Source: a virus. Taken from it: a stretch of 64,000 bases of DNA. Under the pieces are notes generated by a model. That model saw only the letters and a program-made list of their open reading frames with translations, ran no database searches and was not told where the DNA came from. Within the stretch, counting starts at the first letter, position 1; each line of letters begins with the position of its first letter. This document shows, one piece after another, positions 12,986 through 58,553 of this stretch. The stretch lies in the IMG/VR virus record IMGVR_UViG_3300025137_000023, positions 19,291 through 83,290 of that record; one strand, 5' to 3'. A program made the position numbers and the translations under genes.

Positions 12986-13282
12986 TTAACTTTTGTTTTT
13001 GGAAGTTCCAGTGTATAAACCAAACCAAGCCGCGCCTGCACCAACTACGATACTTACTAAACCTGATTGTTCCATTGATGGACTTGGCAATGCCATATAC
13101 CATAATACAACTTTGTATAATAATACAATGTATACTGTTAAGAATAATCTTGGGAATATTCTCCAACTGTCTACTGCTTTTGCTAAATGAATTAACCATT
13201 GAAACGGGTTCTTGCTACTATCTACTTGGTTTGTGTCAACCTCAAGCTCGATGTTGATTTTCTTCTTTTGTACTTCTGACAT
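12986..13282 (-). CDS. Small membrane protein (holin candidate)
   Basis: Two TM segments; WRIFPR motif; late TAAATA upstream. Confidence 0.55.
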   Translation of the reverse strand: MSEVQKKKINIELEVDTNQVDSSKNPFQWLIHLAKAVDSWRIFPRLFLTVYIVLLYKVVLWYMALPSPSMEQSGLVSIVVGAGAAWFGLYTGTSKNKS

Positions 13283-13330
13283 AGATACGATCTCCTAGTG
13301 TATTCTTAACTACACTGATATTTATCGTAT

Positions 13331-14041
13331 CTAGGTGTTTTTAGGGGGTCTTTCACTATACCAGCCAACTAAACTAAATCTAGGTTCTGGTGCTACAAAA
13401 CTAACAGGACTAACGAAATGCTTGTTAAACGACGGCTTTGACACGTCTAAGAGCACTAATCTGTTGCCTATTGGGAGTATAGTTGTATGTACTTTACCCT
13501 GTTCATCTTGTAAACATAACTGCCCGCCGTACTCTGCTTTCCACTCTTTTGTAAGGTAAAACAAATAAGCAACTTTTCTAGTAGGATCATAATGTGATGT
13601 AATCCAGTTATCGTACTTATAAAAACTAAATGTAGGGTAAGCGGTATATAGGTTATCAAACCCGGTAATGCTTTCTACCCATTCCTTAAACACTTTGCCC
13701 AAGTTAATTTCTTGTGCAAACTCTTCTGTATGTTTATTTGTGTATTTGCTATCTCTTCTAACTTTTGCAATTCTATGAAAAAATGAAAAATCATCATTGA
13801 ACATAGAGTGCTGAACTTTTTGTTTTAATAGTTCACCTAAAGCAGGTTTAGTATATGGTACTTCCTCATACCAATCACCAACTCCGCCTCTGAAATCATA
13901 ATTTAATGTAGGGACAGTTTCGTATAATTGATTAATATATTCTTGTGTTAATATATTATCAAGTGTTAGATAGCCCTTGTCAGCGAAATGATCCTTGTAC
14001 GCCTGTTGTACATCTGGATCGAAAACTCCCAGATTGAACAT
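13331..14041 (-). CDS. 2OG-Fe(II) oxygenase (prolyl hydroxylase-like)
   Basis: HYD, YLFYL...W...GGQL, HFVSPV and RFSLVGW motifs. Confidence 0.8.
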   Translation of the reverse strand: MFNLGVFDPDVQQAYKDHFADKGYLTLDNILTQEYINQLYETVPTLNYDFRGGVGDWYEEVPYTKPALGELLKQKVQHSMFNDDFSFFHRIAKVRRDSKYTNKHTEEFAQEINLGKVFKEWVESITGFDNLYTAYPTFSFYKYDNWITSHYDPTRKVAYLFYLTKEWKAEYGGQLCLQDEQGKVHTTILPIGNRLVLLDVSKPSFNKHFVSPVSFVAPEPRFSLVGWYSERPPKNT

Positions 14042-14552: not shown

Positions 14553-14737
14553 TACTTTCTTACTGAATCTATAAAGTTGTAAACTCTGCCAAATTGTTTA
14601 TCAATACTAATTAAATCTTGTTGAATCATATTGACTAAAATTTGAAGTTCCATTAACGTAATTAACGTCCAAGAAGCCAACCCTAATAGGATCGTACCTA
14701 ATAAGCCTATCAGCATTGTATTAGTTTTTCTTGTCAT
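14552..14737 (-). CDS. Small membrane protein
   Basis: One TM helix; translationally coupled to the lysis genes. Confidence 0.55.
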   Translation of the reverse strand: MTRKTNTMLIGLLGTILLGLASWTLITLMELQILVNMIQQDLISIDKQFGRVYNFIDSVRK

Positions 14738-15123
14738 TATTTGTCTTTTGGAGAATCTTTAGGTTCGTAGTATTCTTTATACTCGTTGATTATATTATCT
14801 TGTTGAATTAAATATGCTCTAATTTGAGCAAAGTTAATAGATAATGCTTCATAGCCTTCATCAGTTAAACCAAATATAACTGCATCAGTATTTTGTTCTT
14901 TTAATTTAGCAAATACTTCTTCAGCATTTTCACTGTTAATGATAATCCATTTGATATCAGATAAGTTTGCCGGAACCGGTTTCTCTAAATTAAGAGGTAG
15001 TCTCGGTTCTTCTTTAGTAAAAATTTCTAACTGTTTGACTGCCGTGCTACAACTAGTAAGGAACGTAACTAGGATTAGCAAGACTAGGACATTCAGGATT
15101 GATTTCTGACTTCTTAGTAGCAT
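14737..15123 (-). CDS. Outer-membrane spanin (Rz1-like lipoprotein)
   Basis: Lipobox LTSC; Pro-rich; overlaps the 3' end of the i-spanin. Confidence 0.65.
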   Translation of the reverse strand: MLLRSQKSILNVLVLLILVTFLTSCSTAVKQLEIFTKEEPRLPLNLEKPVPANLSDIKWIIINSENAEEVFAKLKEQNTDAVIFGLTDEGYEALSINFAQIRAYLIQQDNIINEYKEYYEPKDSPKDK

Positions 15124-15538
15124 TTTTCTCTTTCTCGGTTAAAGGACTGCCCATTGCAATATCAAAACATCTTTTTGCGTTTGCACTTCCTTTATTGATT
15201 ATTTTCTCTATTACTTTTGATTTCTTAATGGCAAGGTCACCCAAATCTCTCTGGTCTCCTTTGCCATTAACTTTATTAAATTTGTTGTCTAATACTTTTA
15301 TTTCTTTGTTTAGTGTATCGACTAAAACATTAAGTCTTTTATTAGTTTCGTTAATTGCCACAAAGTCTGCTTTCATTTGAGCAAGTGCCTGTTTTTGATC
15401 TTCAACACCTTGTTCTAATAACATATTGTTGGCTTCACTTGTTGCCAAATCGGCTTTAAGATTCTTAACGTAAATAAACCCGCCACCTGCTCCTGCAAGT
15501 ACGAGTAACAATAATCCTATTTTTAGTCCACTAAACAT
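15053..15538 (-). CDS. Inner-membrane spanin (Rz-like)
   Basis: N-terminal TM plus long coiled coil; directly follows the endolysin. Confidence 0.65.
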   Translation of the reverse strand: MFSGLKIGLLLLVLAGAGGGFIYVKNLKADLATSEANNMLLEQGVEDQKQALAQMKADFVAINETNKRLNVLVDTLNKEIKVLDNKFNKVNGKGDQRDLGDLAIKKSKVIEKIINKGSANAKRCFDIAMGSPLTEKEKNATKKSEINPECPSLANPSYVPY

Positions 15539-15544
15539 AAAGTA

Positions 15545-16057
15545 TTAACCTACTAATTTTTTTGCTAGTTCTGTGGTTTCATTAACACGTCTTGTCCAGC
15601 CTCTGCCAAATGTAGCAAAGTGACTTAATTTTTCATAATAGGCTTGTCTGTTACTTTGATAAGTTTCAATAGTATCTACAAGTCCATTATCGTCCACATA
15701 TTCTTTTAATTTTGCTAAAGTGTTAGGACCAATTCCGCCGTCTGCTACTGTACCAATCATTGTTTGTAAGTATTTTGCGGCTCTACCGGGACCTGCGTTT
15801 ACACCAAAGTCGAATACACATAAGTCTAATCCACCTGGTAGTTCATCGCCTTTCATTTTATCCCAATATCCTTTTTTGTAAATTGGTGCGACGTCTTCGA
15901 CTAACAAGTCTTTCATATCTTTTGTGCCGCCGTGTTCTAAGTACACTTTTTTTGTAACTCCTAGGTTAGTTTCCCCACCTGGATCGTTAGGGTGATTTAC
16001 ATAACCACCTTCGTGATGTAGAATTGCTTCTAAACATTTATCATAATTTGATTGCAT
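15545..16057 (-). CDS. Endolysin, glycoside hydrolase family 108 with peptidoglycan-binding domain
   Basis: EGGYVNHPNDPGGETNLG, DFGVNAG, DGGIGPNT and FGRGWTRR motifs. Confidence 0.9.
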   Translation of the reverse strand: MQSNYDKCLEAILHHEGGYVNHPNDPGGETNLGVTKKVYLEHGGTKDMKDLLVEDVAPIYKKGYWDKMKGDELPGGLDLCVFDFGVNAGPGRAAKYLQTMIGTVADGGIGPNTLAKLKEYVDDNGLVDTIETYQSNRQAYYEKLSHFATFGRGWTRRVNETTELAKKLVG

Positions 16058-18094: not shown

Positions 18095-19057
18095 TTAAAA
18101 TCCGTTTGGTATTAATACATAGTGAATTGTAATAACAATACCTACTGATGCTAACAATCCTGTTATCATCTTAAGAAAGTCTTTGCCAACTAAAGGAAAT
18201 ACTACTTTTAGTTTTCCATTGCCTAGCATAGTTGCCATTGCAAGTTCACGTCCACATAATAGTCCAACAAATACCCATGTTGTTGACATTGGGATATCAT
18301 TGAGTTCTTTAAAGAACCAAAGCACTAACCAATAAAACAAATCAATTAACGTTGCACTTCTTACATATCTTGTATTGTGCTTTTCTAATACAATTTGTTG
18401 TATTTTTCCTCCACGTTCTCTAAACATAAAGAACAAGCCTATAACAAACACAAGGCTTATCATAACCATTAATTCAAAGTTTACTTGTCTTGGCAGGAAT
18501 ACGGCAATGTTTGCCATGTCATGACTTAACCAAGTCCACCATAAAAAACCAGTAGTTACCCATTGACCAACTCGCCAATATACTTTGTGTTTTTCTTTTA
18601 CAGGGTCGTGCTTTTCATCTATAAATTTAGTTATAACAATCCATATGGCATAAGCCGCCACTGCCGCGACTGCATAACCCATAATAGATTTCATTAACAT
18701 TTTTTCTAATACAAATGTACTAGCAAATGCCGACAATACTAAAAATGATGTACTAACAGGAATACCTACCCTTGTTAGTATTAAAAGTAAAGCAGGTGCC
18801 ATTGCATGATACCATTTTACTTCTTGCCACGGTATCCTATTAAGACGTCCGTATGATATATCTCCTCCATTCACTGTCCAGCCATACCATAAGGCCCAAA
18901 GCAAAACCGCCGATGCGGCGATCCATAAAGTTTTCCAATTAAATTTTTCGTTGTTTGATGCAATCCATGTACCGAGAGTTTGTACTGAATCGTTTGCGAT
19001 AACTGAATAAGCGGCTAGTAAAAAACCTACACCCATCCAAAGTGTTAATGCGTCCAT
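18095..19057 (-). CDS. Multi-TM protein, PiT/PHO4 phosphate transporter-like
   Basis: About 9 TM helices; IANDS and SHDMAN resemble the two PiT GAND signatures; start MDALTL follows GGAGA. Confidence 0.55.
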   Translation of the reverse strand: MDALTLWMGVGFLLAAYSVIANDSVQTLGTWIASNNEKFNWKTLWIAASAVLLWALWYGWTVNGGDISYGRLNRIPWQEVKWYHAMAPALLLILTRVGIPVSTSFLVLSAFASTFVLEKMLMKSIMGYAVAAVAAYAIWIVITKFIDEKHDPVKEKHKVYWRVGQWVTTGFLWWTWLSHDMANIAVFLPRQVNFELMVMISLVFVIGLFFMFRERGGKIQQIVLEKHNTRYVRSATLIDLFYWLVLWFFKELNDIPMSTTWVFVGLLCGRELAMATMLGNGKLKVVFPLVGKDFLKMITGLLASVGIVITIHYVLIPNGF

Positions 19058-19180
19058 TTTATATCTCCATTCGACCAAGCTCGACGTTGCTTGAATTGAT
19101 TTATATATTATTTCATTGTAACACTATTTACTTGGTAATGTCAAAAGAAAGATTACAGTTTTGTTAAATGATTTGCAACC

Positions 19181-19762
19181 TTAGACTGTTACAATATTAT
19201 AGATGTGTTCCCAATCCTTTGCTATTGGGTAAGGATACTCGCCATTCATGTTGTGTCCATGTTCTACAAGTATAGGTTTAAGTCCTGCTTTTGATCCTGC
19301 TTCGCAGTTTACAGGTTTGTCTTCAATCCACCAAAGTTTGGATCCTTTGTATTGTGCAAGTGTTTCATCTTTATCGTCTCCAGTACCTAAACAAATTAGT
19401 TTAGTAAAGACTCCTTCTCCGAACAACTTGTCTAAATTTTTCTGTCTTAGCCTTTTTGCATATTTGTTGTTACTTAATGATGTAATGCAATGAAACTCCC
19501 AACCTTCGTCAGCAAGTTTTGTAACATATTGAACTGCGTCACGTAGAGCAGGTAAGTATCCGATTGTAGCACTTTCATTAAACTGTCTAATTAGTGTTTT
19601 AACTTGTGCTTTCGGAATACCATAACGTTCAGCCATATCGTATTTGAACTGGTATCCTTTTGTAGTTTTAAATCCATGTTCTTCCATCCAACAGTTAAAG
19701 GCGAACTCCCAATTAAGTAGTACACCATCTGCATCTGTTAATATAATTTTTTTCAATTTCAT
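19181..19762 (-). CDS. HAD hydrolase / nucleotidase (T4 30.2-like)
   Basis: TDADGVLLNW, ITSL and WIEDK motifs. Confidence 0.75.
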   Translation of the reverse strand: MKLKKIILTDADGVLLNWEFAFNCWMEEHGFKTTKGYQFKYDMAERYGIPKAQVKTLIRQFNESATIGYLPALRDAVQYVTKLADEGWEFHCITSLSNNKYAKRLRQKNLDKLFGEGVFTKLICLGTGDDKDETLAQYKGSKLWWIEDKPVNCEAGSKAGLKPILVEHGHNMNGEYPYPIAKDWEHIYNIVTV

Positions 19763-19793
19763 CTTCTTCTTTTATTGTTTAACTTACAATACT

Positions 19794-19823
19794 AATATAG
19801 CACATTATGTCGTTTTGTCAACC
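19794..19823 (-). promoter_or_regulatory. Early promoter cassette copy
   Basis: GGTTGACA-16 bp (ending GTGC)-TATATT. Confidence 0.7.
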
Positions 19824-19975
19824 TTTTTTGCTTTAGATTTACCTTTCCAGCGATTTAATTTTTGCACGTCATCGGTTCTAGCACCCGGTTCACACACTGT
19901 AATTTTATTGCCTTTTGCTAACCATTCTTGTACTAGTTTATCGTGCTTAATTTGTTCTTCTTGAGTTATAGCCAT
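19805..19975 (-). CDS. Small hypothetical protein
   Basis: MAITQEEQIK...WLAKGNKITVC; GAAAGG RBS. Confidence 0.6.
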   Translation of the reverse strand: MAITQEEQIKHDKLVQEWLAKGNKITVCEPGARTDDVQKLNRWKGKSKAKKVDKTT

Positions 19976-19981
19976 GTTAAG

Positions 19982-20066
19982 CCTTTCTGTAAGGTTGAAC
20001 CCCCAGCGACGGTACAACACTGGGGGTTCGTGTAAGTTAAGAAGGAGATCGTACCGTTAACTTGGT
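19982..20066 (-). ncRNA. Putative structured RNA (two hairpins with a kissing loop)
   Basis: Stems AAGTTAA/TTAACTT and GAACCCCCAGTG/CGCTGGGGGTTC; ACGGTACGA is complementary to the loop TTGTACCGT. Confidence 0.5.
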
Positions 20067-20789
20067 TCACGTTATCTTAACGTAATTAAGTTGTGATTCT
20101 TTAACACCATCGTACCACCTACTGAAATCAGTACGTTTTACTTTAGCATAAATTTTTACTTCTTTATTAACTTTATCAAGCCAATTATGTTGACTCCAAA
20201 AAGTAATTAGTTGATTATTGTTAGTAATACCAACATAGATATAACTAGTATAGTTACGACTATAAATTCCTGAAATAAGTTTAGCAGTAGTATTAATCTT
20301 AGTACCAACTGAACCAATCCAATCTCCTGTACAGGTTGCTAGTATCATATCTTCTAAACTCTCACGTTTTATAGTTCTTAAATATGTTTGTGGAATACTT
20401 GCAATTAATCCAAAATCGTAAGTAGTAATATCATCTTTTTCAAATGTTGCATATAAGTTAGATTCAAAACCATTTAGGTCTCCTGCTATGGCTCTCATAG
20501 CCAATCCTTCTAACCATTCAGAACATTCTTTTGAATTTTGTTTGTCTTTTTTTGAAGGGGTAATTTCTGTCTTGTTTAAGAGATCGATTGTTTCTGGTGT
20601 CATACCATAATGTACATCACTTAAATTAAATCGAATAATTTCTTTATTAGAAACTGTTTTAGGAACAGCCTTATTATCGATCATCTCGATTTCAGTATCC
20701 TTAACGTATTTCTTGTTGAAGGATTGTGAAGCAAATGCCATTGCTAATACGTCTGTGAATTTGAAAGTTTCTTTACCAAATTTTGACAT
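20067..20789 (-). CDS. Hypothetical early protein (possible C-terminal OB-fold)
   Basis: 240 aa ORF with RBS and early promoter. Confidence 0.65.
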   Translation of the reverse strand: MSKFGKETFKFTDVLAMAFASQSFNKKYVKDTEIEMIDNKAVPKTVSNKEIIRFNLSDVHYGMTPETIDLLNKTEITPSKKDKQNSKECSEWLEGLAMRAIAGDLNGFESNLYATFEKDDITTYDFGLIASIPQTYLRTIKRESLEDMILATCTGDWIGSVGTKINTTAKLISGIYSRNYTSYIYVGITNNNQLITFWSQHNWLDKVNKEVKIYAKVKRTDFSRWYDGVKESQLNYVKIT

Positions 20790-20819
20790 CTACTTCTCCT
20801 TTTAATTAACTATAATTAC

Positions 20820-20849
20820 AATATAACACAAAATGCCGTATTGTCAACC
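20820..20849 (-). promoter_or_regulatory. Early promoter cassette copy
   Basis: GGTTGACA-16 bp-TATATT with TG extension. Confidence 0.7.
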
Positions 20850-20853
20850 TTTT

Positions 20854-20979
20854 TTATAGTCTTTTTGCGATTTTTTCTTTAGTAAATTCTGCCGCACCTG
20901 TAACATCTTTTCCAATGCCAGCAACAGTTGAACAAGCACCTAGAGATAGTGCTATTATAATAATCATAATGTATTTCAT
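20854..20979 (-). CDS. Entericidin EcnA/B-family lipoprotein
   Basis: Hand-translated MKYIMIIIIALSLGACSTVAGIGKDVTGAAEFTKEKIAKRL; matches the C-x-T-x-x-G-x-G-K-D pattern. Confidence 0.7.
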   Translation of the reverse strand: MKYIMIIIIALSLGACSTVAGIGKDVTGAAEFTKEKIAKRL

Positions 20980-21131
20980 TGATCTTCTTCCTTTTTTATG
21001 TAAAAATGTGGATACGCCTTTGGACGTTGTTCTTTGACCTGTTCTAAATACTCATTTGCATCCGACTCAGAGTCAAACTTTGCAACGACAACTTCGTCGT
21101 GTACTCTCGGAATGTATATGACTTGAAACAT
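20976..21131 (-). CDS. Small hypothetical protein
   Basis: Hand-translated 51 aa, MFQVIYIPRVHDEVVVAKF...; ATGA overlap with the next gene. Confidence 0.55.
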   Translation of the reverse strand: MFQVIYIPRVHDEVVVAKFDSESDANEYLEQVKEQRPKAYPHFYIKKEEDQ

Positions 21132-22119: not shown

Positions 22120-22596
22120 TTAAACTACCATATTATCCTTTTTTCTACCCAGATAATCCTGTTCCATAATAGTTTTGATATTATGGCACGTTTTACATAA
22201 TGCACTTATATTCTCCTGTGTATCGTCTCCGCCCATGGATTTAAGCACTTGATGATCTCCATCCATAACAGATCTCATTGCTCTTAATCTAACAAAAGGA
22301 TCCTCTATTTGATCAAATCTTGGATCTTCTTGTACATTATATCCACAGCCAGGAAAACTTTCAGTACCTACACACACCCAGCCTCTATAGAATGTATGTG
22401 GTCTATCAGGTTTACCAAGTCCTCCATATGGAACACTTTTTAACTGATGATCTCTGCATAAACAATCTCCACCAGGACCTTGATGTACACTTAATAGTTT
22501 ATTACAATCCACTAGTTTACACGTTAAGCCTAATTGTGCTTGTTTCATTCTTACACTAGAACTTTTAAGTTTGTCTTTGTTAGGATCTCTAATCAT
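22120..22596 (-). CDS. HNH endonuclease
   Basis: DGDHQ...GGDD...NISALCKTCHNIKT motif plus additional Cys residues. Confidence 0.75.
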   Translation of the reverse strand: MIRDPNKDKLKSSSVRMKQAQLGLTCKLVDCNKLLSVHQGPGGDCLCRDHQLKSVPYGGLGKPDRPHTFYRGWVCVGTESFPGCGYNVQEDPRFDQIEDPFVRLRAMRSVMDGDHQVLKSMGGDDTQENISALCKTCHNIKTIMEQDYLGRKKDNMVV

Positions 22597-57997: not shown

Positions 57998-58021
57998 TAA
58001 GTTCGCTTCTTATTAGGTAAG

Positions 58022-58140
58022 TGTTGGAGAGTAGATTCATTTCCGTTACTACGTTAAACTAAACCAATAGTTTTTTTTCAAAATCCGACCAAAAATTTAG
58101 TAATCGAAATTACTAGGGAAAGGTTTCCACCCCTCCAACA
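58022..58140 (-). ncRNA. Putative structured RNA of about 120 nt
   Basis: Terminal stem TGTTGGAG/CTCCAACA plus internal GGAA and TTCG tetraloop hairpins; no ORF. Confidence 0.45.
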
Positions 58141-58145
58141 TATAG

Positions 58146-58553
58146 TTATTTATCAGTTCTATGAAATATACCTTGCTCTAAAACAAAAATTTCAAATCCC
58201 CACCCTGCTATATGTTGCCTGCCGCCACCTATTATTTTACCGCCTGCTTCTTTTTCATCGCTTAATGTACTGCTATAATGCCATACGTTATCGTGTTCAA
58301 TCATAGCAAATTGCATACCTTCTACCATATCAGCATTCATTATAGATAAGGTCTTATCACCCTTATTCCAATATAAGCCAAAATACCCACGATCGTCGTC
58401 ATTGCTAGGCTTGGTCCTGTAAAATATGTCAACAGGCACGTCAGGCTCATTGAGCTCAGTAGTGCATACATATCGTACTTGTCCATCTTGTCCAGTTCCA
58501 TAGGACTTCTCCACTTTTTCAGATTCAGTAATAGGTTCGTGCTCTATATTCAT
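58146..58553 (-). CDS. Hypothetical protein
   Basis: 135 aa, coupled ORF. Confidence 0.6.
   Translation of the reverse strand: MNIEHEPITESEKVEKSYGTGQDGQVRYVCTTELNEPDVPVDIFYRTKPSNDDDRGYFGLYWNKGDKTLSIMNADMVEGMQFAMIEHDNVWHYSSTLSDEKEAGGKIIGGGRQHIAGWGFEIFVLEQGIFHRTDK

What the first reader, a model, noticed from the sequence alone, without database searches (positions are those of the whole stretch)
19976..20066. Unannotated kissing-loop RNA exposing an anti-Shine-Dalgarno-like sequence
Seen on the minus strand: hairpin 1 is AAGUUAA[CGGUACGAUCUCCUUC]UUAACUU and hairpin 2 is GAACCCCCAGUG[UUGUACCGU]CGCUGGGGGUUC. ACGGUACGA pairs with the whole 9-nt loop 2 (one G-U). The rest of loop 1, UCUCCUUC, is anti-SD-like. 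A third small hairpin, CCUU-ACAGA-AAGG, hides the RBS of the next ORF. The element is GC-rich in an AT-rich genome and has no U-tract. Inference: a new riboswitch-like cis-regulator or a stable sRNA that pairs with SD sequences.
Basis: partly seen in the sequence, partly recalled or inferred. Interest (0 to 1): 0.75.

Follow-up and report, generated by a model that had tools for sequence, protein, structure and literature searches.

The report
Phage RNA matching a late gene's start
A small conserved RNA element in a marine giant phage carries a 26-letter stretch that is the mirror image of the ribosome landing site of another phage gene 6.7 kb away, so it probably silences that gene by pairing with its message.

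Summary
The sequence is as described, but only part of the anatomy survives comparison. I found 19 copies (10 distinct) in marine and estuarine phage contigs. Two parts are conserved:
- an invariant 26-nt block, ACGGUACGAUCUCCUUCUUAACUUAC (window 20057-20032, minus strand);
- hairpin 2 (20029-19997), where 10 of 12 stem pairs covary and the loop core GUACCGU never changes.

Hairpin 1 is perfect only in this window, and hairpin 3 is not conserved. The loop-to-block pairing (7 bp) is possible in every copy but never varies, so it is unproven.

The element is single-copy, has no Rfam match, and always sits just before a 55-56-aa ORF.

New result: the best non-self complement of the invariant block is the same orthologous site in two whole phage records. 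That site is the translation start region of a 98-aa two-helix membrane protein gene (ATG at 13282). Pairing covers 24 of the 26 invariant bases: 12 bp over the Shine-Dalgarno sequence and spacer, plus 11-13 bp on an upstream hairpin loop. Only element-bearing genomes have this leader (1 of 80 orthologous loci).

Best reading (about 0.5): a trans-acting antisense-type RNA seed carried on an early mRNA that represses a late gene. On energy alone p is about 0.02, and there is no covariation and no experiment.

The parts
20032..20057 (-). Invariant 26-nt block ACGGUACGAUCUCCUUCUUAACUUAC, the proposed seed. Bases 3-26 are complementary to the target leader; bases 1-7 are complementary to the hairpin-2 loop.
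   Evidence: Identical in all 19 copies (10 distinct), although the metagenome pattern forced only the last 19 nt. Duplex predictions.
19997..20029 (-). Hairpin 2: 12-bp GC-rich stem with a 9-nt loop. It is the structural or terminator-like 3' module.
   Evidence: Ten of 12 pairs change on both sides. The G-U pairs are allowed only on the gene-sense strand.
20009..20015 (-). Invariant loop core GUACCGU, complementary to bases 1-7 (ACGGUAC) of the block. Proposed pseudoknot or self-inhibiting toehold.
   Evidence: All 7 pairs form in 10 of 10 distinct sequences and never vary. No covariation.
20057..20063 (-). Specific to this window.
   Evidence: Changes in relatives are not compensated.
19805..19975 (-). 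Small ORF (56 aa; WLAKGNKIT...NRWKG...KKVDK) that always follows the element. Its SD, GAAAGG, lies at 19982-19987.
   Evidence: The MFE pairs CUCCUU or UUCUU with this SD in 7 of 10 variants.
20067..20789 (-). Upstream 240-aa ORF (phrog_2319, unknown function). The element begins 9 nt after its stop codon.
20820..20847 (-). Sigma-70-like promoter (TTGACA-16-TATATT, 11 of 12 matches, TG before the second hexamer) ahead of the 240-aa ORF. Presumed early promoter of the transcript that carries the element.
   Evidence: Promoters at equivalent positions in L121 and L119.
13303..13315 (-). Target site A, GUGUAGUUAAGAA. Its 5' GUGU(A) forms the 5' arm of the inner leader hairpin and the rest (GUUAAGAA) is the loop. 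It pairs with UUCUUAACUUAC(AC) of the block.
13284..13295 (-). Target site B, GGAGAUCGUAUC: the Shine-Dalgarno sequence plus spacer of the 98-aa gene. It pairs with GGUACGAUCUCC of the block (12 bp).
12986..13282 (-). Proposed target gene: 98-aa protein with two hydrophobic helices (phrog_10198, unknown function).
13319..13326 (-). Late-promoter-like GATAAATA inside the target leader. It overlaps by 3 nt (13324-13326) the 3' end of the outer-helix 5' arm (13324-13333) and lies upstream of the inner hairpin.
   Evidence: (NATAAATA 18 on the minus strand vs 2 on the plus strand).
13324..13333 (-). 5' arm UAGAUACGAU of the leader's outer helix. It pairs with AUCGUAUCUA (13282-13291), which covers the spacer and the A of the AUG.
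   Evidence: (I20).

Best explanation
The element is a base-pairing regulatory RNA module carried on an early phage transcript, in the 3' UTR or intercistronic region behind the 240-aa gene.

Its 26-nt invariant block acts as a seed. It pairs in trans with the 5' leader of the mRNA for a 98-aa two-helix membrane protein encoded 6.7 kb downstream on the same strand. Two sites are paired:
- Site A is the loop of a small leader hairpin (GUAGUUAAGAA). It is the likely first contact.
- Site B is the Shine-Dalgarno sequence plus spacer (GGAGAUCGUAUC).
Occupying site B would block 30S binding and so repress translation.

Hairpin 2 is the stable 3' module. It looks like a terminator in several relatives. 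Its invariant loop pairs with the first 7 bases of the seed, which may hold that end closed until target binding displaces it.

The target leader also has a T4 gene-e-type design. A late-promoter-like motif lies inside a helix that masks the start region on read-through transcripts. The RNA would therefore be a second lock on a late protein.

Shown here: conservation, hairpin-2 covariation, complementarity and its genome-wide rank, and co-occurrence with this leader.
Inferred: that the two RNAs meet, the direction of control (repression), the early and late timing, the pseudoknot, and any role in lysis.
For: 1. The 26-nt block is identical in 19 copies (10 distinct). Meanwhile the hairpin-2 stem, the flanks and the small ORF all diverge; the small ORFs are 56-61% identical to the window's.
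2. I ran an RNAduplex scan of the block against the whole 83-kb record. The best non-self site of 16,650 windows is the 98-aa gene's start region at -29.1 kcal/mol (mean -7.3, sd 2.9; next locus -24.4).
3. In the 306,714-bp relative, the best non-self site of 61,336 windows is the orthologous start region at -28.0 (next locus -22.4).
4. The duplex uses bases 3-26 of the block, so the conserved block and the complementary region have almost the same limits.
5. It covers the SD and reaches to 1 nt before the AUG; the nearest paired base is C13284.
6. Matched element and target pairs from four genomes give -25.3 to -29.1 kcal/mol. The other 79 of the 80 fetched orthologous leaders average -11.3 (sd 2.4, best -18.9).
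7. Cofolding gives a net -22 to -26 kcal/mol with a late-type leader and -12.6 to -19.4 with the read-through leader. Hairpin 2 stays intact.
8. The spacer between sites A and B differs in length and sequence (UACACUA, AACACACUA, GACACAUUA), while both sites are kept.
9. Co-occurrence:
   - Target sites are found in the contigs of G000 (window), G001, L120's contig (L141) and L122's contig (L142).
   - A variant site is found in G003.
   - The complete 328-kb relative G002 has neither the element nor the gene.
   - Only 1 of the 80 orthologous loci has the element.
10. The G-U pairs in hairpin 2 place the RNA on the gene-sense strand.
11. Contigs from RNA libraries of three studies cover the element. 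This is weak, because DNA carry-over is not excluded.
Against: - On energy alone the match is only moderately unusual: 11 of 600 mononucleotide shuffles of the block find a site in the 83-kb record at -29.1 kcal/mol or better.
- The G001 result is not independent of G000, because the two leaders are homologous.
- There is no covariation between seed and target, since both are invariant. The one target variant (G003, an extra A in GGAGAAUCGUAUC) weakens the pairing to -25.3 without any compensating change.
- The co-occurrence is confounded by phylogeny. The element-bearing genomes are each other's closest relatives (target protein 90-97% identical, against 80% or less for the rest).
- Many of the 80 loci are short contigs, so absence of the element there is not proven.
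- No discrete small transcript, 5' end or 3' end has been shown. No promoter is conserved directly upstream of the element.
- Trans pairing alone does not explain the conservation of the hairpin-2 loop or the fixed position before the small ORF.
- The early and late assignments rest on promoter-like motifs only.
Confidence: 0.5

Rival explanations
1. The element is a cis-acting leader or attenuator of the small 55-56-aa ORF. The pyrimidine block (CUCCUU or UUCUU) pairs with that ORF's own SD across hairpin 2. Hairpin 2 terminates or pauses transcription. The loop-to-block pseudoknot, or a bound factor or ligand, decides between the states. This could coexist with the trans reading: the late leader RNA would then free the small ORF's SD.
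For: - The element is always immediately 5' of the small ORF. This holds even where an extra 67-aa ORF separates it from the 243-aa gene.
- The MFE folds pair the block with the downstream SD around hairpin 2 in 7 of 10 variants.
- Hairpin 2 is followed by U-rich tracts in several relatives.
- No promoter-like site lies between hairpin 2 and the small ORF.
Against: - The SD pairing is only 5-7 bp (-3.5 to -5.6 kcal/mol), and any pyrimidine block would give it. In the window itself it is not in the MFE fold.
- It does not explain why 26 nt are invariant, including GAUCGUACC-complementary and UUAACUUAC bases that have no partner near the small ORF.
- More distant small-ORF relatives have no such element: 0 of 22 loci and 0 of 28 loci.
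- No Rfam riboswitch or leader matches.
Confidence: 0.2
2. Hairpin 2 is a plain intrinsic terminator or 3' stabilising hairpin for the upstream early gene. The invariant block and loop are a binding site for a phage or host protein, for example the basic small-ORF product regulating itself. The match to the 98-aa leader is a coincidence or a relic of an old inverted duplication.
For: - The GC-rich 12-13-bp stem has U-rich tails in L119, L121, L159 and L162.
- 11 of 600 shuffles reach the same duplex energy.
- The small ORF product is lysine-rich at its C-terminus.
Against: - The window's own copy has no U-tract.
- Terminator loops are not normally conserved, yet this one is invariant and complementary to the block. 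My own calculation puts the chance of that at about 20 x 4^-7 = 0.001.
- The complementary region matches the limits of the invariant block and falls on an SD in four genomes.
- No RNA-binding family is detected for the small protein.
Confidence: 0.17
3. The element is a general anti-SD decoy. It mimics the 3' end of 16S rRNA and soaks up SD-led mRNAs or a factor that binds the anti-SD region. This would favour the phage's many short-leader late messages.
For: - GAUCUCCUUCUUA resembles the E. coli 16S 3' end in 11 of 13 positions. That sequence is recalled from memory and was not tested with a tool.
- The lower-ranked duplex hits are GGAG-rich.
Against: - One single-copy RNA cannot titrate bulk SD sequences.
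- The invariance extends well beyond the anti-SD part.
- The best match is one specific leader, by a 4-6 kcal/mol margin.
- There is no exact copy in 185,579 prokaryote species genomes.
Confidence: 0.05
4. The two complementary sites are DNA sites: inverted repeats for an invertase or a DNA-binding protein.
For: The two sites are inverted relative to each other and lie 5.6-6.7 kb apart.
Against: - The half-site spacing differs by 7-9 bp between the two copies, and it also differs among genomes.
- The orientation is the same in every contig that holds both sites.
- The G-U pattern of the adjoining hairpin points to RNA.
- I saw no recombinase in the ORFs I scanned.
Confidence: 0.03

Closest known systems
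Phage P22 sar RNA (Rfam RF00262)
   Same: A short phage RNA with a pyrimidine, anti-SD-containing 5' part followed by a GC-rich hairpin. It represses a phage gene by covering its ribosome binding site. This was the best weak Rfam alignment and has the same layout. The sar role is described in review PMC12197685 (passages seen).
   Different: It scores 18.3 bits against a gathering score of 43, E = 0.27, which is chance level. From the review and from recall, sar is transcribed opposite its target (cis-antisense). Here the target lies 6.7 kb away on the same strand and pairing is in two segments.
P1/P7 c4 antisense RNA (recalled from memory, not from a call)
   Same: A phage RNA encoded apart from its target site that acts in trans. 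It uses two short complementary segments to occlude a ribosome binding site.
   Different: No Rfam family other than those listed reached E <= 10, so there is no c4 match. c4 belongs to temperate-phage immunity and is cut from a precursor by RNase P (recalled). Neither was tested here.
3'-UTR-derived base-pairing sRNAs of enterobacteria such as CpxQ and SroC (recalled)
   Same: A conserved seed sits directly after a stop codon and is followed by the mRNA's terminator hairpin. There is no promoter of its own.
   Different: Here the U-tail is present in only some variants. The host, any chaperone and any processing are unknown. The terminator loop is conserved and complementary to the seed.
[quoted passage not shown]
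   Same: This comparison concerns the target leader, not the element. A helix masks the start region on long transcripts, and a late-promoter motif sits in the part that encodes the 5' strand, so late transcripts would lack it.
   Different: The consensus helix is only 7 bp and covers the spacer rather than the SD. There is an added trans-complementary RNA. The same review states that no trans-acting regulatory RNA had been functionally characterised in T4.
PAK_P4as15, an antisense RNA at the endolysin gene of Pseudomonas phage PAK_P4 (review PMC12197685, passage seen)
   Same: An RNA of a virulent phage proposed to repress translation of a lysis-related gene and so delay lysis.
   Different: It is a cis-antisense transcript. 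Here the target's role in lysis is only a guess from topology and neighbourhood.

Membership tests
sar RNA (RF00262) | Covariance-model score at or above the gathering score (43 bits) | tested here: not met
   18.3 bits, E = 0.27.
sar RNA (RF00262) | Transcribed from the strand opposite its target's ribosome binding site | tested here: not met
   The opposite strand has no ORF or start codon after its AAGGAG. The complementary start region lies 6.7 kb away on the same strand.
Any Rfam 15 family (riboswitches, leaders, ribozymes, c4 included) | Match at the gathering score, or any match with E below about 0.01 | tested here: not met
   Only 6 tRNAs in the window at gathering scores. Best E = 0.19 in 19900-20150 with lax filters.
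Trans-encoded base-pairing sRNA (functional class) | Conserved seed complementary to a target translation start region at another locus | tested here: met
   Energy-only p is about 0.018.
Trans-encoded base-pairing sRNA (functional class) | Compensatory change between seed and target | tested here: inconclusive
   Seed is invariant in 10 distinct copies. Only 4 target variants exist; the sole change is a 1-nt insertion.
Trans-encoded base-pairing sRNA (functional class) | A discrete transcript, or a defined processed RNA | not testable with these tools
   Only assembled contigs of RNA libraries were available, and they cannot show ends or strand.
Trans-encoded base-pairing sRNA (functional class) | Effect on target expression | not testable with these tools
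   Needs a reporter or infection experiment.
Intrinsic (Rho-independent) terminator | GC-rich hairpin followed directly by a U-tract | tested here: inconclusive
   Not called in the window. Called in L119. U-rich tails in L121, L159 and L162, none in L120.
   Hairpin 1 is perfect only in the window, and changes elsewhere are uncompensated. Hairpin 2 is conserved.
Pseudoknot between the block's 5' end and the hairpin-2 loop | Pairing kept across relatives, with covariation | tested here: inconclusive
   7 of 7 pairs form in 10 of 10 distinct sequences but never vary.
T4 gene-e-type masked leader (for the target gene) | A helix covering the start region, with a late promoter inside the part that encodes its 5' strand | tested here: met
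   Helix 13324-13333 with 13282-13291, and GATAAATA at 13319-13326. The motif shows an 18 vs 2 strand bias. Promoter activity was not tested.

The most novel reading that the evidence does not exclude
A lytic, T4-related marine giant phage times a late, holin-like membrane protein with a trans-acting RNA seed embedded in an early mRNA's 3' UTR. The seed is kept half-closed by the loop of its own terminator hairpin, like a built-in toehold. It first docks on a hairpin loop at the 5' end of the late transcript, then zips over the Shine-Dalgarno sequence. This RNA lock sits on top of a T4 gene-e-type masked leader. It would be the first trans-acting regulatory RNA with a defined target in the T4-like lineage.
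Probability: 0.3. Interest if true: 0.75.

Novelty: new variant of a known kind. Interest (0 to 1): 0.6.

Why it matters
A 2010 review of T4 post-transcriptional control (PMC3014915, passage seen) says that no riboswitch and no small trans-acting regulatory RNA had been functionally characterised in T4. It suggests that T4-related genomes might offer candidates. A 2025 review (PMC12197685, passages seen) describes phage sRNAs that are mostly cis-antisense or come from temperate phages.

This element is a concrete, testable candidate. It offers:
- a defined 26-nt seed;
- a defined two-site target on a late gene's ribosome binding site;
- four natural seed and target pairs;
- an apparent self-pairing feature.

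If it works as proposed, it adds RNA-RNA control in trans to the timing toolkit of large lytic phages. It would also give a function to a small membrane protein family with at least 594 loci in IMG/VR. If it fails, hairpin 2 and the invariant block still define a new conserved phage RNA motif of unknown role.

Tried and rejected
- **GenBank phages.** blastn of window 19000-21000 found no match.
- **Generic hairpin pattern.** A scan of viral contigs for the hairpin-2 stem pattern returned 117 or more stretches from a generic GC-rich hairpin pattern; I did not inspect them and did not use them.
- **Related loci from the 240-aa protein.** No relative was confirmed.
- **Exact 20-mer in prokaryote genomes.** 0 hits, so there is no host or prophage copy.
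- **More distant relatives.**
  - HAD-neighbour relatives (L123-L138) and small-ORF relatives (L147-L152): 0 of 22 loci match model R1 at E <= 1.
  - L168-L199: 28 of the 32 loci were searched; I left out the 4 that lie on contigs already known to hold the element. The best hit was 8.1 bits, E = 1.2.
- **Repeated promoter or mobile cassette (PeSL-like).** Rejected, because there is one copy per genome.
- **ORF on the opposite strand behind the strong AAGGAG.** Rejected, because no variant has a start codon there.
- **Small ORF identity.** No Pfam or PHROG family. The protein atlas gave only unnamed viral clusters at 0.86 or below, plus a SutA-RBD cluster at rank 10 (0.83, carried by 28% of members). 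That is below the tool's own reliability line, so I did not use it. The homologue search gave 108 small hypothetical proteins with no informative names.
- **Holin claim for the 98-aa protein.** Not made. PHROG family is of unknown function and there is no Pfam hit. GenBank relatives are annotated only as 'TMhelix containing' or hypothetical.
- **RNA libraries.** Gaps between contigs prove nothing, for example the X1 records ending at 20068 and starting at 20075. I draw no transcript ends from them.
- **Target-site search in further records.** The metagenome records behind L159, L161 and L154 are not held. My pattern was also mis-specified: it fits only the variant with the extra A, so its 0 hits in G004 mean nothing. 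L141 already shows the site in that contig.
- **Supplementary files of papers.** Not opened. Table S1 of PMC12197685 (38 uncharacterised phage sRNAs) might list something related.
- **Search of print.** I ran three searches and saw no description of this element. That is not proof of absence.
Full report
**What is there**

- RNAfold gives hairpin 1 (7 bp, 16-nt loop) and hairpin 2 (12 bp, 9-nt loop). The energy is -33.1 kcal/mol, z = -2.96, and 1 of 200 shuffles folds as well.
- Hairpin 3 is not in that fold.
- The window is 32-38% GC. It belongs to an 83-kb IMG/VR phage record that CheckV rates 24% complete. Relatives reach 306-328 kb.
- Rfam finds only six tRNAs at gathering scores.
- With lax filters on 19900-20150, nothing scores better than E = 0.19. 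The P22 sar RNA model aligns end to end at 18.3 bits against a gathering score of 43. I treat that as chance, though the layout is alike.

**Relatives**

- Related loci found through the neighbouring HAD-like gene gave 20 loci, and 4 of them carry the element.
- An exact 21-mer scan of IMG/VR found the same four contigs.
- I scanned JGI metagenomes with only the 3' 19 nt of the conserved part, so that the loop-complementary bases were free to vary. This gave 12 more loci.
- A covariance model (R1) finds 19 copies in 41 sources, 10 of them distinct.
- R1 finds none in 22 loci of more distant HAD or small-ORF relatives.
- It finds none among 28 further small-ORF relatives with filters off (best E = 1.2).
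- There is one copy in each of G000, G001 (306,714 bp) and G003. There is none in the complete 328,292-bp relative G002.
- No prokaryote genome holds the 20-mer.

**What is conserved**

- ACGGUACGAUCUCCUUCUUAACUUAC (20057-20032) is identical in all copies.
- The hairpin-2 stem differs in 8 distinct versions. All have 12-13 uninterrupted canonical pairs (a ninth, L159, was not parsed by my script but has the same letters as L153).
- On the model-fitted alignment, 10 of 12 pairs change on both sides and every cell pairs. No shuffle of 500 reaches this, and slid controls give 33-47% paired. Fitting favours the structure, but the unfitted MAFFT alignment already gave 7 compensatory pairs.
- G-U pairs such as U-G at stem positions 8, 9 and 12 would be C-A mismatches on the other strand. 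The RNA is therefore gene-sense.
- The loop core GUACCGU is invariant, and so are its 7 pairs with ACGGUAC. That is conservation without covariation. By my own arithmetic, a fixed 7-mer is Watson-Crick complementary to some 7-mer of a 26-nt block with probability about 20 x 4^-7 = 0.001.
- Hairpin 1 fails. Its 5' arm reads GUUAA only here and GUUUA or GAUUA elsewhere, against an unchanging 3' arm. RNAalifold omits it.
- Tails after hairpin 2 are U-rich in several relatives and poor here.

**Context**

- The element always directly precedes the small ORF. This holds even in L121, where an extra 67-aa ORF lies between the 243-aa gene and the element.
- Sigma-70-like promoters (11 of 12 matches) precede the 240-aa gene (20847-20820) and the HAD gene (19821-19794), and they sit at the same places in L119 and L121. 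None lies between hairpin 2 and the small ORF.
- The element is therefore most simply the 3' UTR or intercistronic part of an early-type transcript.
- Contigs of RNA libraries from three studies cover it, and two bridge it (X2 19964-20130; X7 19850-20109). These cannot show strand or ends, and they do not exclude DNA.

**The complementary site**

I scanned the 26-mer with RNAduplex against both strands of whole records.

| Record | Windows scanned | Best non-self site | Energy (kcal/mol) | Next locus |
|---|---|---|---|---|
| G000 | 16,650 (mean -7.3, sd 2.9) | GUGUAGUUAAGAA-UACACUA-GGAGAUCGUAUCUAUG | -29.1 | -24.4 |
| G001 | 61,336 | orthologous site, GUGUAGUUAAGAA-AACACACUA-GGAGAUCGUAUCUAUG | -28.0 | -22.4 |

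- The AUG is the start of a 98-aa ORF (12986-13282, minus strand) with two hydrophobic stretches.
- GGUACGAUCUCC pairs with GGAGAUCGUAUC, which is the SD plus spacer (12 bp, one G-U).
- UUCUUAACUUAC(AC) pairs with (GUG)UAGUUAAGAA (11-13 bp, one bulged U).
- Thus 24 of the 26 invariant bases are used.
- The same sites occur in L141, on L120's contig. G003 has them with one extra A.
- Energies for the four matched pairs are -25.3 to -29.1. The other 79 of the 80 fetched orthologous leaders average -11.3 (sd 2.4, best -18.9).
- Only L220 (= G001) among those 80 loci (896 kb) holds the element.
- G002 lacks both the element and the gene.
- Cofolding keeps hairpin 2 and gives a net -22 to -26 kcal/mol with a leader starting after the late motif, and -12.6 to -19.4 with the longer leader.

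**How strong is this?**

- 11 of 600 composition-preserving shuffles of the 26-mer find a site in G000 at least as good. Energy alone therefore gives p of about 0.02.
- The G001 hit is homologous to the G000 hit, not independent.
- Three things add weight: the duplex and the independently defined invariant block share their limits; the site is an SD on the sense strand; and the spacer between the two sites varies while the sites do not.
- Three things subtract weight: there is no covariation; G003 has an uncompensated insertion; and co-occurrence is confounded by relatedness (target protein 90-97% identical within the clade, 80% or less outside).

**The target leader**

- UAGAUACGAU (13333-13324) pairs with AUCGUAUCUA (13291-13282). 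An inner GUGU/ACAC hairpin presents GUUAAGAA in its loop. With four sequences there is no covariation.
- Between them lies GATAAATA (13326-13319).
- In the window, NATAAATA occurs 18 times on the minus strand and twice on the plus strand. It mostly lies 6-50 nt before start codons.
- 13 of the 80 orthologous leaders have the motif within 75 nt of the start, against 1 of 80 in the reverse-complement control.
- This is the design described for T4 genes e, soc, 49 and I-TevI. There, read-through transcripts mask the start and late transcripts begin inside the structure (PMC3014915, passages seen).

**The target protein**

- Its family is of unknown function (phrog_10198, no Pfam).
- It is widespread, with at least 594 IMG/VR loci. 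It is also present in KVP40-like Vibrio phages and Pelagibacter phage Mosig, annotated only as TM-helix or hypothetical.
- A GH108 endolysin and two Rz-like spanin genes lie 1.5-3 kb upstream.
- A lysis role is therefore a guess, not a finding.

**Mechanism proposed**

Early transcripts carry the seed. It docks on the leader's hairpin loop (site A) and extends over the SD (site B). This blocks initiation on any read-through or first late transcripts of the membrane protein. As early RNA decays and late RNA rises, the block is outrun. The hairpin-2 loop, by pairing with seed bases 1-7 (five of which also pair with the target), may protect or gate that end.

Only the complementarity, the conservation and the co-occurrence are shown here. 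Every dynamic step is inferred.

**Rivals**

- A cis leader of the small ORF. The block pairs with that ORF's SD in 7 of 10 MFE folds, but by only 5-7 bp.
- A terminator combined with a protein-binding site.
- A general anti-SD decoy.
- A DNA inverted repeat.

These are weighed in their own sections of this report. The cis and trans readings can coexist.

**Novelty**

The element is not in Rfam. I saw no description of it in three literature searches. The mechanism class, occlusion of an RBS by a base-pairing RNA, is well known. The setting and the self-complementary terminator loop are new: a trans target within a lytic T4-related giant phage.

Noticed in passing
window 19794-19821 (minus strand), overlapping the 3' end of the small ORF at 19805-19975: The small protein's conserved C-terminal KKVDK codons (aaa aag gtt gac aaa) contain the -35 TTGACA of the sigma-70-like promoter for the next gene (HAD-like). 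Part of that 'protein' conservation may therefore be promoter conservation.
   Followed up: partly
window, whole, minus strand (e.g. 58154, 47981, 41544, 38653, 17169, 13326): NATAAATA occurs 18 times on the minus strand and 2 times on the plus strand, and G is the commonest first base (9 times). It looks like this phage's late-promoter motif and is often only a few bases from the ATG.
   Followed up: partly
window 58147-58154 (minus strand): A GATAAATA motif sits directly upstream of the intergenic structured RNA that another first-stage note places at 58015-58145. That RNA may therefore be a late transcript.
   Followed up: no
window 14737-16057 (minus strand): A lysis cassette: a GH108 endolysin with a PG_binding_3 domain (15545-16057), an Rz-like spanin (15053-15538), and a lipoprotein Rz-like spanin overlapping it (14737-15123). 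Three small membrane or lipoprotein ORFs follow.
   Followed up: partly
window 12986-13282 and loci L220-L299: The 98-aa two-helix protein family is very common in marine viral contigs. It has no annotation anywhere I looked.
   Followed up: partly
L121 1986-2189: In the 306-kb relative, an extra 67-aa ORF is inserted between the 243-aa gene and the element. The element starts immediately after that ORF's stop codon.
   Followed up: no
window 22120-22596 (minus strand): A Cys-rich HNH endonuclease ORF (PF01844, E = 6e-6) lies 2 kb upstream of the element.
   Followed up: no
loci L156, L161, L162: hairpin-2 loop: In these variants the loop reads UGUGGUACCGUG. It can extend the stem through three wobble pairs and one G-C pair to a GUAC tetraloop. 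That would compete with the proposed pseudoknot.
   Followed up: no
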